Shown here piece by piece: positions 7,402 through 52,219 of a DNA stretch of 64,000 nt. This DNA is from Octopus vulgaris (taxonomy: Eukaryota), in contig OX597815.1 in the NCBI GenBank assembly GCA_951406725.2, positions 136,710,001-136,774,000 on the forward strand, written 5' to 3'. Positions within the stretch are counted from its first letter, which is position 1. The number at the start of each line of letters is the position of its first letter. The notes under the pieces were generated by a model. The model ran no database searches, had not been told where the DNA came from, and was given only the letters and a program-made list of their open reading frames with translations. A program made the translations under genes and the position numbers.

Positions 7402-8320
7402 CATACATACATACATACATACATGCATGCATATAAAATATACAGTAAGAGATGAATAACGATTCATGCACTGCATATGTTTCCAGTAAGTTATTTTTAT
7501 TGATGAATAGAAATATGACATCTTACGGAAAAAAACGTTTTCATCAGGTGAATATACACGAATTACGTAATTCAAAAAAACATTCCGAATATCACCAGTT
7601 CCTGCCACTTCACGATTCCCTGAGCAGTAATAGTGTCAGGGAATTATTAAGTGGCACAAACTGGTGATTTTTGGAATGTTTTTAAATGTGTAATTTATGT
7701 ATATTTACCTTATGGTAATGATTTTTTTGCATGATGTCATATCTGTATTTATCAATAAAATCCCGTTTGAAACAGCTGTAGTGAATGAAACATTATCTTT
7801 CTCTCGTTATTTATTCACCATACTCGGAATGTATCATTAGCGTGGATTCGGACTCTATTGAATGCAGTACAATTGGTCCAATGAACACCCCTAAATATTG
7901 CTGTGAGACTCATAGTACACTTTGTCGGGTGCAGTCAATTGTATATACAACTGGAATAATAATAGTCTTTCCGTACTTCAGTATGTAGTTATTTCTTCCT
8001 CTGATTTCGTTGTATACACGATTTCTTTTTCTCTTTATCCGACCCTGTGCTTTACCATTTAAGTACATGATTCACTTGAATCCTGAACATTTATAATACT
8101 TTTACACACAAATTCATGCACGCACACGCAAACACACACAGTTCCTCAATCTTTGTATCTGAATAATGCTTATAATTCTTCAATGTAACTCTTTCGACTA
8201 CTTTCAAAATCTGCTGCTTGATTTTAGAAAAGAGAAACCATACAGACATCGCTCTCATTGGCCAATCTATCATATACCATTATAAGTGAGAAATATTGTA
8301 ATTTTTTTAAAGACATATCG

Positions 8321-8533
8321 GTTTCTACAGTTTAAGAGATGAGGAATTATGTACATCATTTATATTATTTACATTTGACGGATATTTGTCCTCGTCGTGT
8401 TTGTTGTTCAGCCTTCATCAGGAGTCTTGGGGTAATTTCTCATTCCTAAAGTATTATTATCATCATTATTATTATTATTGTTGTTGTTGTTGTTGTTTTA
8501 ATGCTGTTGTTATTATTATTATTATTATTATTA

Positions 8534-8601
<68 letters not shown>

Positions 8602-8627
8602 TCACTGCGTGGAATCGAACTCGGAAT
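8321..8627 (-). mobile_element. tRNA-head/(AAT)n/HHR-tail composite SINE, minus-strand copy with internal deletions
   Basis: B-box (ggaatcgaactcggaat 8611-8627), then (TAT)n 8452-8597, then tail homologous to 8947-9070 and 20115-20290. CTGATGA retained (tcatcag ~8415-8421); GAAAC segment deleted. Confidence 0.7.
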
Positions 8628-8808
8628 GGGATTAGTAATAGAAGCAGCACATATGCTAGAACACAACATCCTCCTAAGCTGGAAGGGTAGAAGAATATTA
8701 GATATATAAGTCTTAAAATGGGATTAGTAATAGAAGCAGCACATATGCTAGAACACAACATCCTCCTAAGCTGGAAAGATAGAAGAATATTAGATATATA
8801 AGTCTTAA
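8625..8808. repeat. 92-bp tandem duplication
   Basis: aatgggattagtaatagaagcagcacatatgctagaacac... at 8625 and 8717, about 2 mismatches. Confidence 0.9.
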
Positions 8809-8837
8809 AATTCACTCCATAATTGCTCACGGACATA

Positions 8838-9070
8838 TGGCGTAGTTAAGAGCGTGGTTAAGAGCGCGGGCTCCAAGATTCCGAGTTCGATTCCAGGCTG
8901 ACCTGAATAATAATAATAATGATAATAATAACAATAATAATAATAACTTAGGAGTGAGAACCTATGTTCGAAATTTCCCCAACAGACCTGATGAAAGCTG
9001 GAGGAAATATCAACCGAAACGTTATGTTAACAACAAACAAGGACAAATAAACGTCTAATGTAAGTAATAT
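8838..9070 (+). mobile_element. tRNA-head/(AAT)n/HHR-tail composite SINE
   Basis: A-box-like tggcgtagt..ggttaagagcgc (8838); B-box gagttcgattcc (8883-8894); (AAT)n 8906-8946; then CTGATGA (8988-8994)-aagctg..caacc-GAAACGTT (9016-9023). Confidence 0.75.
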
Positions 9071-9507
9071 CAGCTTCTATCCGAAAATATGAGGTATTAA
9101 ATCGCTGCAGATAATCTTGAAAATATATTATTTTGATATTAAGTCCTGTTCTACAGAACAGCTGGTGTGCATAACTTTTTCTCACGACCAAAGTTTTTAA
9201 CTGTTACCATCTTGATTATCATTTGGAAATTGTTGGGCATTATTATTCTTTCTGCGATCTCTTGTCGCATTTCAGCTTTATAGATATTTATATAACTTTT
9301 ATATGACCTTTCAAAAACGGCTCATTCAAAAAAGGCTCTTACTTTCTGTTATTCAAAGTAATTTCATTTGATATTTATGTGTAGCCAACTATTCGTCATC
9401 AATAAGTTGTATTATCTAACAGGCTCCATTTATTTTGAAGTGACATAAACTCTTGTCTACTTAGATTTCGATGTAAATTTCGTTAATGAAAGCGGTATCG
9501 AAGCAAG

Positions 9508-17539: not shown

Positions 17540-19069
17540 GTCGATTACCAGCGAAAATGTATTATAATGAGTCTATTTGCTGTGTGTTTTGACACTTGTT
17601 CTTTAGAGAGAAACTATATACCTCAGTATATCAGAATGACAATGCCTATATCACGGCCTTCCCTTTTCACATTAAGCTAAAAAAATCAAAGGACGGTAAA
17701 ATTTAATGTGAATTGCTTGGTGAGGGATGGGAGAAAGAAAAATATAACGTCAGCTGTGTATAGTGTGGGGAGAGTGCGATAAGGGACGTAGCAAGTAAGG
17801 AGAGGGGTGCTTCATTTTATAACCTGAGCCGAGCCTGCTGGAGTTAGAGGATAAAATGGAGGTGATGATCACACGGTGAAATGAAAAGTGTGGAGGTGGG
17901 AAGCAAACCAAGAAGGAAAATGTCAAAGGAAAAACACAAAATAAAACTGACGTGCATATGGGGTTAGAGAAGCAAAGGAAACAGAGTGTGAATAAATAAG
18001 CAAACAACTTCGAGTAGTGCTAAGAATTATCTAAAATTAAAAATTTTCATACAAAACGAAGTAGAAAACTTCAGATTTAGAAGACAATTGCGGTGGCCTA
18101 TGTCGAGCTATATGAATGCTATTTCTTGCATGGTGAGCTCGCATGCAGAGGCATTCCCTCGTTGGCTTGAAGTAAACTAGTTCCTTGTAAACTAGTTCAA
18201 TCCTTAATCGATATGACTAATTATGACATGTGTCCCACTTCCCATCATTTCGACTTTACATACATATATATAATTACATATGATACGTGATAATAAGCAT
18301 TGTGATACGGATTACCTAGTTTACAATTAATCAAGGGGACACTTATTTATTCAATCGCATAAACATTATCTGATAAAGATGAAACTGAAATGAAAAAGAA
18401 AGAGTTAATGAATAATCATTGAATAGATACACGAAAGAATGTATGAATAAATGAACAGATCGGTAGATGTATAAAATGGCTTAACCTGTAGCGAACATAA
18501 ATATTTATAAGAAAAGATAGGATGCACTTCTGGTTTCATTTCTAAAGCCACTATCTTTTGTGAGCAGATATGATAGTGAGTTTCATGTTTCGTGAGAGGA
18601 CAAAGTGCGACACCGACAAGCTATCATCCTGAAAGATACCTTTTTGGTAGTGAATGCTATCCGACTGAATTTGCTCCTTACCACTCCTAAAGAGCAAAAT
18701 GGTGTACTAAGTCTTGTTCAGGTGTTCAAGCACTCACTAGTGGTTGTAGAACACTGGCTAACGGTAAAGCCTCGATAATCCACTCAGGCAGTTTACTATC
18801 AAAAACCTGTTGATATTTCAGCTACAATATGGTTACGTTCCTCAGACTTTTTTACTGTTTTTCGCGGATCATTGTGTTAACAGCTGCTATATACAGTACT
18901 GCCCCCGCCTCCTATTTATCTCCAGCTTGCTTAAGTGTTATAATGTTTTTGGTGGTTCAATGAGCCTGCAAAAACCGGATTGCTGCACCCAGTATAATGT
19001 TTTTAGCAAGTGTGGTTTGACTATTTTAGGGGATAATGAGAGTAGTTGCACTTGATAAGTATTCAGGTA

Positions 19070-19771
19070 GAACTATGTTACTACATTTTAACCCCAGGAA
19101 AACGACTTTTCCAGCTGATTAATGGCACACAACTTGTGTCCGATATATTGTGAGTAAGGGAGCGAATCACTCCCCTCCTGCTTGTTAAAACCAGTAGATG
19201 AGAGATAAAGACTCAAAAACCATGGACTATTGGTCTTGCCAAGCTGGAGGGGAGTAATTCGCTCCCTTACCATATATCGGCTACAGGTAGTGTGTCGTTA
19301 ACCAGCTGAAGAAAATATTTTCCTGGGATTAAAATGTAGTAACAAAGTTCTTTATAGAACAACCATGTTATAGTGGCAAAAAAAACGTTACCGTCTAGTA
19401 TTGTTGCTACTTATATCTGGTTTAGAGATTTTAGAATTAGCTACTCTGCGCATTACGAGATCAGCGGCTCTCTGTCGCTTCTCTGTTTACGTATTATGAG
19501 TAGGGACGATTGACTGCCATTTCTAACGGGCAGGTATCCAGTGCCGATGAAGGGTAAAGACTAAAAAACCATGGTCTCCTGGTTTTACCAAGCTGGAGGT
19601 AAGTGATTCGCTCCCTTACTCACAATAAATCAGACAGGTTGAGTGTCGTTAAGCAGCTGGAAAAGACGTTTTCCTCAGGTTAAAATGTAGTAACATAGTT
19701 CTTTATAACATGGCCATGTTACAGTGGCAAAAAAACACCTTACTGTCTAGTATTGCTACTACTTATATCTC
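19070..19771. mobile_element. PLE-type arrangement: one inverted copy plus two direct ~350-bp-spaced copies with degenerate HHR
   Basis: 19070-19195 is inverted relative to 19225-19350; 19205-19418 recurs at 19555-19771. HHR-like ccagtg-CCGATGA-ag..ct-AAAAAA-ccatgg-TC-tcctgg at 19538-19582. Confidence 0.75.
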
Positions 19772-19784
19772 ATTATTTACATTA

Positions 19785-20290
<506 letters not shown>

Positions 20291-20309
20291 GTACTTGTAT
20301 CTCGTTATG

Positions 20310-50184: not shown

Positions 50185-50785
50185 CACACATAATTAAGGG
50201 ATTAGTAAAAATTTCCTTCACCACATACCGAAATTTAGAAATAGCAGTCAAAACTACTAATTCTTCTACTACAATATATCTCTACACACAGCAATACTCG
50301 TAATACACATAGACAAAAAAGAAGAAAAAATAACGTAACTAACCAGCCTTTATTTAATCATGTACGCGTTTCAAGGATTAGAATTATGTAAAAATTCATG
50401 ATATTCAAGATTATAAATTTATAATCTTTAATATCCTGCTGACGAAGAAAACGAATTTTTACAAAATTCTAATCCTTGAAACGCGTACATGATTAACAAA
50501 AGGCTGCTTAGTTTCGATATTCTTCCCGTCTTTTTTCCGTATGTAAGTTACGAGTATTGCTGTCTGTAGAGATATATTGTAGTAGAAGAATTAGTAGTTT
50601 TGGCTGCTATTTCTAAATTTCAGTATGTGGTGAAGCAACTTTTGCTAATCTCCTAATTATGTTTATAATTAAAAAAAAAAAACTTTCTGTATGTTTTTAT
50701 CGATAATGTTTTATTTCCATACCAAACTACTCGGTAAAATTTATTAATTATTAAATTAGTAATTCTTTACTCTATATCTATAATA
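50185..50785. mobile_element. Fold-back element (~210-bp arms) with HHR at the apex
   Basis: 50190-50397 is inverted relative to 50453-50662; the right arm extends to (TA)n. Confidence 0.85.
50433..50493 (+). ncRNA. Type-I hammerhead motif
   Basis: atcctg-CTGACGA-(imperfect stem II)-GAAA-CGCG-TA-catgat; palindromic ACGCGT stem III. Confidence 0.7.
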
Positions 50786-50983: not shown

Positions 50984-52219
50984 CGAGGGGTGTATGTAAA
51001 GTCTTGAGCCTCAAAGAAACAAAACATGGTAAAAGACTTCAACATAATCTCCCTCGATGGCTGAACACTTTCTCCAGCGGTGTTGAAGCGCCATTATCCC
51101 GGCCTAGAAGAACTCTTTTGTTTGATACTCCAAGAAACTTCCTACATCGTCTATGACGTCATTGTCACTGGCAAAATGGCAACCAGCCAGGGCTTTTTTC
51201 ATTTTTAGAAGTAGATGAAAGTCAGACGGGGCTTTGTCTGGCGAATATGGCGGATGGTGAACAAGTTCGTATCCACAATCATGAGTTATTGCCATGGCAA
51301 CCACTGAGGTGTGGGCTGGAGCATTGTTGTGATGAAAAAGGACTCCTCTGGTGAGCATTCCCGGCCTTTTTTCTTTGATTAATTCTCGGAGGCGTTTCAG
51401 TACCTGAGAATAATACAGCCCTGTCATGGTGTAACCTTTTTCAAGGTAATCGATCAGCAAGACACCTTGAGAATCCCCCAAAACGGATGCCATGACCTTG
51501 CCAGCTGAAGGAATGACCCTGGCCTTCTTTGGGGTAGGAGAAGATGTGTGCTTCCACTGCTTTGATTGTTCTTTGGTTTCAGGCTGGTAGTGATGAACCC
51601 AACTTTCGTCCATAGTAATGAAACGTGCAAGAAAATTCTCTTCATCGGCTTCAAACAGTTCCAGATTGCTCGTGGACAAAGTGCACCTGGTGCGTTTCTG
51701 TTCAGGAGTCAAAGGGCGAGGGACCCACCTTGCAGAAGCCTTTGAGTTCTTTTGTCACAATGTTGTCTGCTCTTTCAGTTGAGATGCCCAGTCTCTCGGC
51801 TATCTGACGACATGATATTCGGCGATCTTGCATTATCATACCAAGAGCAAGGTCAAGGTTGTCCTTGGTGGTTGCAGTTGGAGGTCTCCTTGACCTAGGA
51901 TCAAGTTCCACACTCTTCCTGCCACACTTGAATTCATTTATCCAGCTGTTGCATATGATGCAGCATTGTCTGTAAGGTTCTCATCATATCTTCATGGATT
52001 TCTGATGGAATAATTCCTTTCAAATGAAGGTACTTTATGACAGCACGATACTCACTTTTCTCCATTTTCCTTGTAAACGCGAAGCTTGTTTATTCAATAA
52101 TCTGCAATAAAAAAATTAAAATATCAACTCCAAAAAGACTGTACTTATCAGAAAAAATAGTTTCAGCTCTGTAGCAGCCCAGTTTCTAGGTTAGGCTCAA
52201 AACTTTCATACACTCCTCG
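50984..52219 (-). mobile_element. Near full-length mariner (DD34D) with frameshifted transposase
   Basis: TIRs cgaggggtgtatgtaaagtcttgagcct / aggctcaaaactttcatacactcctcg. ATG at 52065 (MEKSEYRAVIKYL). Motifs ITMDESWVHHY, HHNNAPAH (second D mutated) and YSPDKAPSDFHL. Confidence 0.92.

What the first reader, a model, noticed from the sequence alone, without database searches (positions are those of the whole stretch)
8321..9070. Tripartite SINE: tRNA-derived Pol III head + (AAT)n + hammerhead-containing PLE-like tail
Seen: two divergent copies both join a B-box head (gagttcgattcc...gacctga) via (AAT)n to the same tail, which carries CTGATGA...GAAACGTT; the tail recurs at 19785-20290 with an intact core. 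Known: SINE 3' ends normally derive from LINE partners, and Pol III + HHR repeats are described in few animals (e.g. Schistosoma Sm-alpha). Inference: this may be a SINE mobilised by Penelope RT, using a ribozyme for RNA processing.
Basis: partly seen in the sequence, partly recalled or inferred. Interest (0 to 1): 0.8.

Follow-up and report, generated by a model that had tools for sequence, protein, structure and literature searches.

The report
Penelope retrotransposon with tRNA-type promoter
This is not a separate SINE but the end repeat of an abundant protein-coding Penelope-type jumping gene; the repeat begins with a tRNA-derived promoter sequence where most copies start, so the element is likely read by RNA polymerase III (untested), which I did not find described for a coding retrotransposon.

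Summary
The head, (AAT)n and hammerhead tail are real and travel together (tail downstream of 76 of 90 heads). But they are not a free SINE. The two 'copies' at 8321-9070 are one head-to-head insertion inside one 13-bp target duplication, and the right arm runs upstream into the last codons of a GIY-YIG endonuclease. Genome-wide, head+(AAT)n+tail is the pseudo-LTR of a Penelope/Poseidon-type element with one 835-aa RT-endonuclease frame that starts inside the 'tail'; insertions show Penelope hallmarks (84 of 92 inverted pairs have a one-sided ~30-nt tail). What is unusual: the pseudo-LTR opens with a tRNA-Arg-like A/B box, 51 of 90 copies begin within a 13-nt window at its start, and the 2.6-kb sense strand has no TTTT. 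Short and long copies share the same variants, so short copies look like run-off products of the coding element. Pol III use is inferred, not shown: two host LINEs also avoid TTTT, and palindromic pseudo-LTR ends are known in Penelope elements. The scan noted this family before on other DNA of this genome.

The parts
8315..8327 (+). left target-site duplication (13 bp)
   Evidence: matches 9067-9079 with 2 transitions; family duplications peak at 12 bp
8328..8452 (-). left arm tail, long 3' end with the ~30-nt extension; hammerhead 3' half deleted
8453..8597 (-). left arm (AAT)n/(AAC)n tract
   Evidence: sequence
8598..8637 (-). left arm head, 5'-truncated, B box at 8620-8612
8625..8719 (+). 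local 95-nt tandem duplication of the inversion junction and endonuclease end
   Evidence: 97.9% identical to 8717-8811
8733..8801 (+). last codons and stop of the Penelope RT-GIY-YIG frame (internally deleted)
   Evidence: same peptide ends the frame in L053, L062, L065
8802..8824 (+). 23-nt spacer between stop codon and pseudo-LTR start
   Evidence: 758 exact genome matches of the family 22-mer versus 2,931 for the head
8825..8834 (+). short palindrome at the family's main 5' boundary; predicted transcription start 13 nt before the A box
   Evidence: 5'-end pile-up; start site inferred
8831..8906 (+). tRNA-Arg-like head: A box from 8838 (split here by a 9-nt duplication), B box 8885-8893
   Evidence: best match among 30 host tRNA loci is tRNA-Arg
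8907..8945 (+). right arm (AAT)n tract
   Evidence: sequence
8939..9066 (+). right arm tail: start of the coding frame (family ATG is GTG at 8954 here) overlapping a minimal type I hammerhead (core 8988-8994 and 9016-9023); short 3' end
9067..9079 (+). right target-site duplication
19772..20291 (.). second insertion: two tails back to back around (AAT)n, no head; one short and one long end; 12-bp duplication at 19760-19771 / 20292-20303

Best explanation
[quoted passage not shown] Shown: unit of about 2.65 kb = one 835-aa RT-GIY-YIG frame, stop, 23-nt spacer, palindrome, tRNA-like head, (AAT)n, then the frame's ATG and the hammerhead; two 3' ends ~30 nt apart; 11-14-bp duplications; a sharp 5' boundary at the head. 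Inferred: Pol III would start about 13 nt before the A box and, meeting no TTTT, could read through the coding frame into the next repeat; the RT would prime inside the frame start (as for anole Poseidon) and copy back. Priming in the first repeat would run off at the RNA 5' end and give the ~250-400-nt SINE-like copies, often folding back at the palindrome; priming in a later repeat would give ORF-linked copies. Short copies likely lack the downstream RNA the RT needs and so would not spread on their own.
For: Linkage: tail after 26 of 30 and 76 of 90 heads; 25 of 30 endonuclease ends run into the head; head, tail and ORF variants are linked (P 1.6e-8 and 0.002). One open 835-aa frame from an in-script majority, cover at least 27; RVT_1 hits; relatives carry RT and GIY-YIG domains. 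84 of 92 inverted pairs have one long and one short end, 36 of 92 duplications are 11-14 bp, as described in PMC8557442, PMC3846280, PMC11167929. 5' ends: 51 of 90 in spacer positions 22-34, 0 in 12-21, ending rate 8.1%/nt there versus 0.35-1.0 elsewhere; 16 of 28 for copies with unrelated flanks (P 6e-6); 4 of 4 head-bearing copies in 400 kb of arbitrary DNA; same boundary in contigs of three other organism codes. A and B boxes intact at tRNA spacing while the cloverleaf is lost. No TTTT in 2,619 nt (P 0.029 by synonymous permutation) versus 1-42 runs in 6 of 6 full-length relatives. 0 of 29 relatives have a B box after the stop. No short-copy-specific variant among 102 short and 46 long copies.
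Against: TTTT avoidance is not specific: majority sequences of two host LINE families have 1 run in 1,758 nt and 0 in 1,050 nt, and Markov controls give P 0.08-0.20. Palindromes at pseudo-LTR 5' ends and fold-back junctions are known in Penelope elements without tRNA modules (PMC3846280), and an initiator-like TCACT sits in the spacer, so a Pol II start or a hairpin stop could make the step. 5' ends spread over 13 nt rather than one base. Box bases are only slightly better conserved among copies than neighbours (4.1% vs 5.4%), as expected of dead copies. RNA reads show both directions about equally and no start pile-up; copies are 6-10% diverged, so the family may be inactive. The RT-binding argument rests on analogy with anole Poseidon only. 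Pol III RNAs are uncapped, so how the frame is translated is unexplained.
Confidence: 0.6

Rival explanations
1. Same Penelope element, but the tRNA segment is a captured relic; the element is transcribed by Pol II (or read-through), and the 5' step comes from self-priming at the palindrome or from a Pol II start near it.
For: Drosophila Penelope uses an internal Pol II-type promoter at the repeat start (PMC2377424 section read); palindromic 5' ends and Inr-like TCACT in Adineta pseudo-LTRs; host LINEs also lack TTTT; 52 of 90 5' ends abut inverted sequence; some copies span ORF end, repeat and ORF start (L441, L445, L446).
Against: The step persists in non-inverted copies (16 of 28); no ends at spacer 12-21 where the Inr-like motif and the longer hairpin arm lie; a template hairpin should stall RT on its 3' side, yet the largest peak is at its 5' edge; both boxes are intact in the family majority.
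Confidence: 0.25
2. One reading: the short head+(AAT)n+tail unit became an independent SINE, re-transcribed by Pol III from dispersed copies and mobilised in trans by Penelope RT.
For: Short copies dominate (71 of 90 heads start at spacer 22 or later), have both boxes and no internal TTTT, so they could be transcribed; roughly 30,000-50,000 loci.
Against: No variant private to short copies; the two subfamily markers occur at the same rate in short and ORF-linked copies; short copies end at frame positions about 123-129 or 154-160, while anole Poseidon needs RNA to +172.
Confidence: 0.12
3. Chance nesting: Penelope tails inserted into the (AAT)n tails of an unrelated simple SINE.
For: Penelope endonuclease prefers ATT motifs (PMC11167929); 14 of 90 heads have no tail within 900 nt.
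Against: Fixed orientation and junction, no duplication at the (AAT)n-tail joint, linked variants across the joint, head fixed 23-30 nt after the ORF stop.
Confidence: 0.02

Closest known systems
Penelope/Poseidon-clade elements (anole Poseidon PAc, PMC11167929; Adineta Pen2a, PMC3846280; D. virilis Penelope, PMC2377424)
   Same: Single ~840-aa RT + C-terminal GIY-YIG frame; pseudo-LTR that includes the first codons; hammerhead overlapping the frame start; inverted 5' copy; one-sided ~30-nt tail; short target duplications; palindrome at the repeat start.
   Different: Their described promoters are Pol II-type (Inr/DPE, TATA/Inr); none of the passages read mentions a tRNA-derived module. Here the repeat start is a tRNA-like A/B box plus (AAT)n, and the endonuclease motif reads CVY...YKG.
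Minimal hammerheads of Penelope-like elements (PMC4209133)
   Same: Type I core, 5-bp helix I, unpaired base before helix II, G10.1-C11.1 pair, palindromic ACGU helix III needing a dimer.
   Different: Nothing essential; activity of this one is untested and the window copies are damaged.
Schistosoma Sm-alpha / Sj-alpha hammerhead SINE-like repeats (as reviewed in PMC6765202)
   Same: Pol III-type promoter followed by a hammerhead; upstream repeat drives the next in tandem arrays.
   Different: Those are non-coding with no identified partner in the passages read; this is the terminal repeat of a coding element.
TRIMp3: Cassandra, Helenus, Ajax (PMC10886601)
   Same: Small-RNA-gene promoter inside a terminal repeat, cloverleaf lost, boxes kept; probably born by capture of a tRNA or SINE.
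   Different: They are non-autonomous LTR elements of at most 1.3 kb; the author argues autonomous partners must use Pol II. This one is a 2.65-kb coding Penelope element.
tRNA-derived SINEs (SINE2), including octopus tRNA-Arg SINEs (OR1/OR2, recalled, not checked)
   Same: tRNA-derived head with A/B boxes, simple repeat, partner-derived 3' part, tens of thousands of copies.
   Different: No separate lineage; the head belongs to the partner itself; Penelope-type, not LINE-type, ends.

Membership tests
Penelope/Poseidon EN+ PLE | single ORF with RT and C-terminal GIY-YIG endonuclease | tested here: met
   835-aa frame; RVT_1; endonuclease end aligns to an Anolis relative, E 8e-40; Pfam GIY-YIG itself did not hit the octopus-like fragments
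Penelope/Poseidon EN+ PLE | pseudo-LTR formed by partial tandem, including the first codons | tested here: met
   tail runs straight into the ORF body in L092, L423, L428, L446
Penelope/Poseidon EN+ PLE | inverted 5' copy, one-sided 30-40-nt tail, short TSD | tested here: met
   84 of 92 pairs one-sided; TSD mode 12 bp
Penelope/Poseidon EN+ PLE | minimal hammerhead in the pseudo-LTR | tested here: met
   helix pairs kept in 89-98% of copies, core intact in 103 of 183; Rfam has no hit; cleavage not tested
Penelope/Poseidon EN+ PLE | clade placement by RT tree with named references | not tested
   no named references held; no CxxC finger in the RT-endonuclease linker argues against Neptune/Nematis per PMC8557442 passage
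SINE2 (tRNA-derived SINE) | tRNA-derived head with A and B boxes | tested here: met
   boxes at head positions 8 and 53; tRNA-Arg best of 30 host tRNA loci, z 4.1-5.6 (few isotypes sampled)
SINE2 (tRNA-derived SINE) | non-autonomous lineage with its own source genes, distinct from the partner | tested here: not met
   head is part of the coding element; no private variants in 102 short versus 46 long copies
SINE2 (tRNA-derived SINE) | transcribed by RNA polymerase III | not testable with these tools
   indirect only: 5'-end pile-up, no TTTT; RNA-seq uninformative
Non-LTR retrozyme | head-to-tail arrays of non-coding hammerhead monomers | tested here: not met
   copies are single or head-to-head

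The most novel reading that the evidence does not exclude
A fully autonomous, protein-coding retrotransposon that swapped its Pol II promoter for a captured tRNA-Arg promoter and is transcribed end to end by RNA polymerase III as a 2.6-kb terminator-free RNA, translated without a cap from an AUG behind an (AAU)n leader, and shedding tens of thousands of SINE-shaped run-off copies: a snapshot of how a SINE could be born from a Penelope element.
Probability: 0.35. Interest if true: 0.82.

Novelty: new variant of a known kind. Interest (0 to 1): 0.6.

Why it matters
The promoter and RNA 5' end of Penelope-like elements are poorly known outside Drosophila. Here the 5' ends of thousands of copies point to a defined start at a tRNA-type promoter, which makes three open questions testable with one short construct: whether Pol III can drive a coding retrotransposon, how an uncapped RNA with a ribozyme inside its frame gets translated, and whether SINEs can arise from Penelope elements. 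It also warns that repeat annotators would file these short copies as tRNA SINEs.

Tried and rejected
ARAGORN and Rfam found no tRNA or hammerhead in the window or in L075. Single-strand folding did not recover the hammerhead (z +0.4 to -0.5 for three arms), as expected for a dimer-type motif. The repeat finder was swamped by microsatellites. No RNA holder was listed on record; raw RNA reads of organism B gave both directions equally, no begin/end peaks, and about 1:300 depth of ORF start versus tail: no evidence either way on the polymerase. Viral contigs held no relative. A second hammerhead family from the window had no detectable ORF and could not serve as an in-genome control. TTTT absence as proof of Pol III was weakened by host LINE controls. 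Independent insertion of head and tail, and a purely local inversion, were rejected. A separate donor SINE identical to the head was not seen among 12 A/B-box hits in 464 kb. My note of 26 of 30 for one search was a miscount; it is 25 of 30.

Full report
Observation. The window lies in a 2.8-Gb, AT- and microsatellite-rich genome; I take it to be octopus-like from its repeat landscape and from the scan's earlier notes, not from a call that names it. They are not chance: the hammerhead 27-mer has 4,734 exact matches and a head 22-mer 2,931, with 0 for reversed controls; 7 loci lay in 400 kb of arbitrarily chosen DNA and none in 92 kb around tRNA genes, so about 30,000-50,000 loci (my estimate). 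Three corrections: the arms at 8328-9066 sit inside one 13-bp duplication and those at 19772-20291 inside one 12-bp duplication, so each pair is one event; the left arm lacks the GAAAC half of the ribozyme; and the right arm continues upstream of the head into a reading-frame end.

What it is. Walking upstream from head-bearing loci reached a GIY-YIG-type endonuclease end and then a Penelope-type RT. Of 30 loci picked by the endonuclease end (one is the query's own locus), 25 run on into the head about 30 nt after the stop. A majority sequence built in a script from loci L001-L120, refined with L421-L450 (cover at least 27), gives one open 835-aa frame whose ATG lies in the 'tail', 70 nt before the predicted ribozyme cut. 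A relative from another organism (P0004, 63% in the RT) reads through its hammerhead in the same frame. The unit is therefore: frame, stop, 23-nt spacer, short palindrome, tRNA-like head, (AAT)n, frame start with hammerhead. Tail follows head in 26 of 30 and 76 of 90 loci, and variants in head, tail and ORF are inherited together.

Insertion signature. Of 92 inverted pairs, 84 have one end near tail 149 and one near tail 176; duplications peak at 12 bp. Inverted 5' copies, a one-sided 30-40-nt tail and short duplications are the described Penelope pattern (PMC8557442 and PMC3846280, passages). In anole Poseidon the tail is the gap between two RT start sites inside the frame start, the RNA is needed to +172, and ribozyme cleavage is not required for insertion (PMC11167929, parts 1-2 of 4). 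The hammerhead matches the minimal dimer type of PMC4209133 (parts 1-2 of 4); its helices pair in 89-98% of copies and the core is intact in 103 of 183. Copy ends do not fall at its cut site.

The unusual part. The head has perfect A and B boxes at tRNA positions 8 and 53 but no cloverleaf; among 30 host tRNA loci covering few isotypes, tRNA-Arg fits best. None of 29 relatives from other organisms with at least 150 nt after the stop has a B box there (29 of 80 loci qualified). Among the first 90 exact head matches on contig C1 (90 of 2,931), 51 begin at spacer positions 22-34, none at 12-21, 3 at 1-11, 16 in the ORF and 20 inside the head; the step holds for copies with unrelated flanks (16 of 28). 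Position 24 is 13 nt before the A box, a usual place for a Pol III start (own knowledge). Contigs of organism codes D, E and F show the same boundary and the ORF start. The sense strand has no TTTT in 2,619 nt: P 0.029 by synonymous permutation, 0.0015-0.007 by looser shuffles, 0.08-0.20 by Markov models. Six of 6 full-length relatives have 1-42 runs, and none of 59 scored control frames (of 80 loci) fell below P 0.13. Against this, two host LINE majorities are also nearly free of TTTT (1 in 1,758 nt; 0 in 1,050 nt), whereas a mariner has 5 in 1,245. So TTTT absence permits Pol III read-through but does not show it.

SINE or not. Short (102) and ORF-linked (46) copies have the same majority, no private variant, and the same subfamily markers at similar rates (the sets were picked by similarity, so age comparisons are not valid). 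Among 30 loci holding the ORF start, two begin at the head (L423, L428) and three carry an upstream ORF end (L441, L445, L446), as expected of a tandem source. I read the short copies as run-off products of the coding element. They end at about frame +123-129 or +154-160, so by analogy with Poseidon they would lack RNA the RT needs. A late, independent SINE phase is not excluded by 148 copies.

Mechanism, shown versus inferred. Shown: anatomy, linkage, Penelope-type integration, sharp 5' boundary. Inferred: Pol III start at the boundary; read-through of the frame; internal priming; fold-back at the palindrome; dead short copies. Unknown: ribozyme activity, translation of an uncapped RNA, present activity. 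RNA reads of a related organism code were uninformative. The main rival keeps the Penelope identity but makes the tRNA a relic: Drosophila Penelope has an internal Pol II-type promoter (PMC2377424, abstract and section 14) and Adineta repeats have 5' palindromes and an Inr-like motif also present in this spacer.

Prior art. Nearest ideas are Sm-alpha (PMC6765202, passages), TRIMp3 (PMC10886601, passages; all non-coding) and retrozymes derived from pseudo-LTRs (bioRxiv 10.64898/2026.07.22.740005, part 1 of 5 and a word search with 0 hits for tRNA; supplements closed). Eight searches listed no paper on a tRNA-headed Penelope element; I saw only listings for most. Two cephalopod repeat papers (PMC13282606 part 1 of 3, supplement listed but unread; PMC8967140 passages) give class totals only. 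Repbase and Dfam could not be searched, so the family may already have an entry. The scan's earlier notes describe the same family at other places in this genome, some as a SINE and some as a pseudo-LTR; I had recorded my reading before seeing them and they are not counted as support.

Verdict. A new variant of a known kind: an ordinary Penelope/Poseidon insertion pattern carrying an unusual, testable promoter module. Interest 0.6.

Noticed in passing
window 50291-50560: Inverted pair of a second, older family with another minimal-hammerhead-like motif; about 40 relatives scored, no ORF detected in 30 loci.
   Followed up: partly
window 19069-19770: One inverted and two tandem ~200-330-nt units of an unknown repeat, Penelope-like in layout, abutting the 19772-20291 insertion.
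   Followed up: no
window 51038-51935: Mariner-type transposase fragment (recognised by motif, recalled), repeated elsewhere.
   Followed up: partly
L153:2987-4247 and L184:3367-4433: Majority sequences of two host LINE families (RTE-like and CR1/L2-like, labels recalled) nearly lack TTTT on the sense strand; a general constraint on retroelement RNAs in this genome may exist.
   Followed up: partly
L422, L432, L434, L437, L293, L294: Forward joins of internal ORF sequence to the tail or to the head start, suggesting frequent RT template jumps.
   Followed up: no
L317:3062-3136 and L377:3432-3511: tRNA-like or tRNA-Leu sequences about 400-500 nt upstream of truncated Penelope frames in metagenome contigs; probably chance neighbours.
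   Followed up: no
family tail position 59: The one common non-CpG variant in the hammerhead core falls on the free N7 base and changes Asp to Glu in the overlapping frame, fitting a double constraint.
   Followed up: partly
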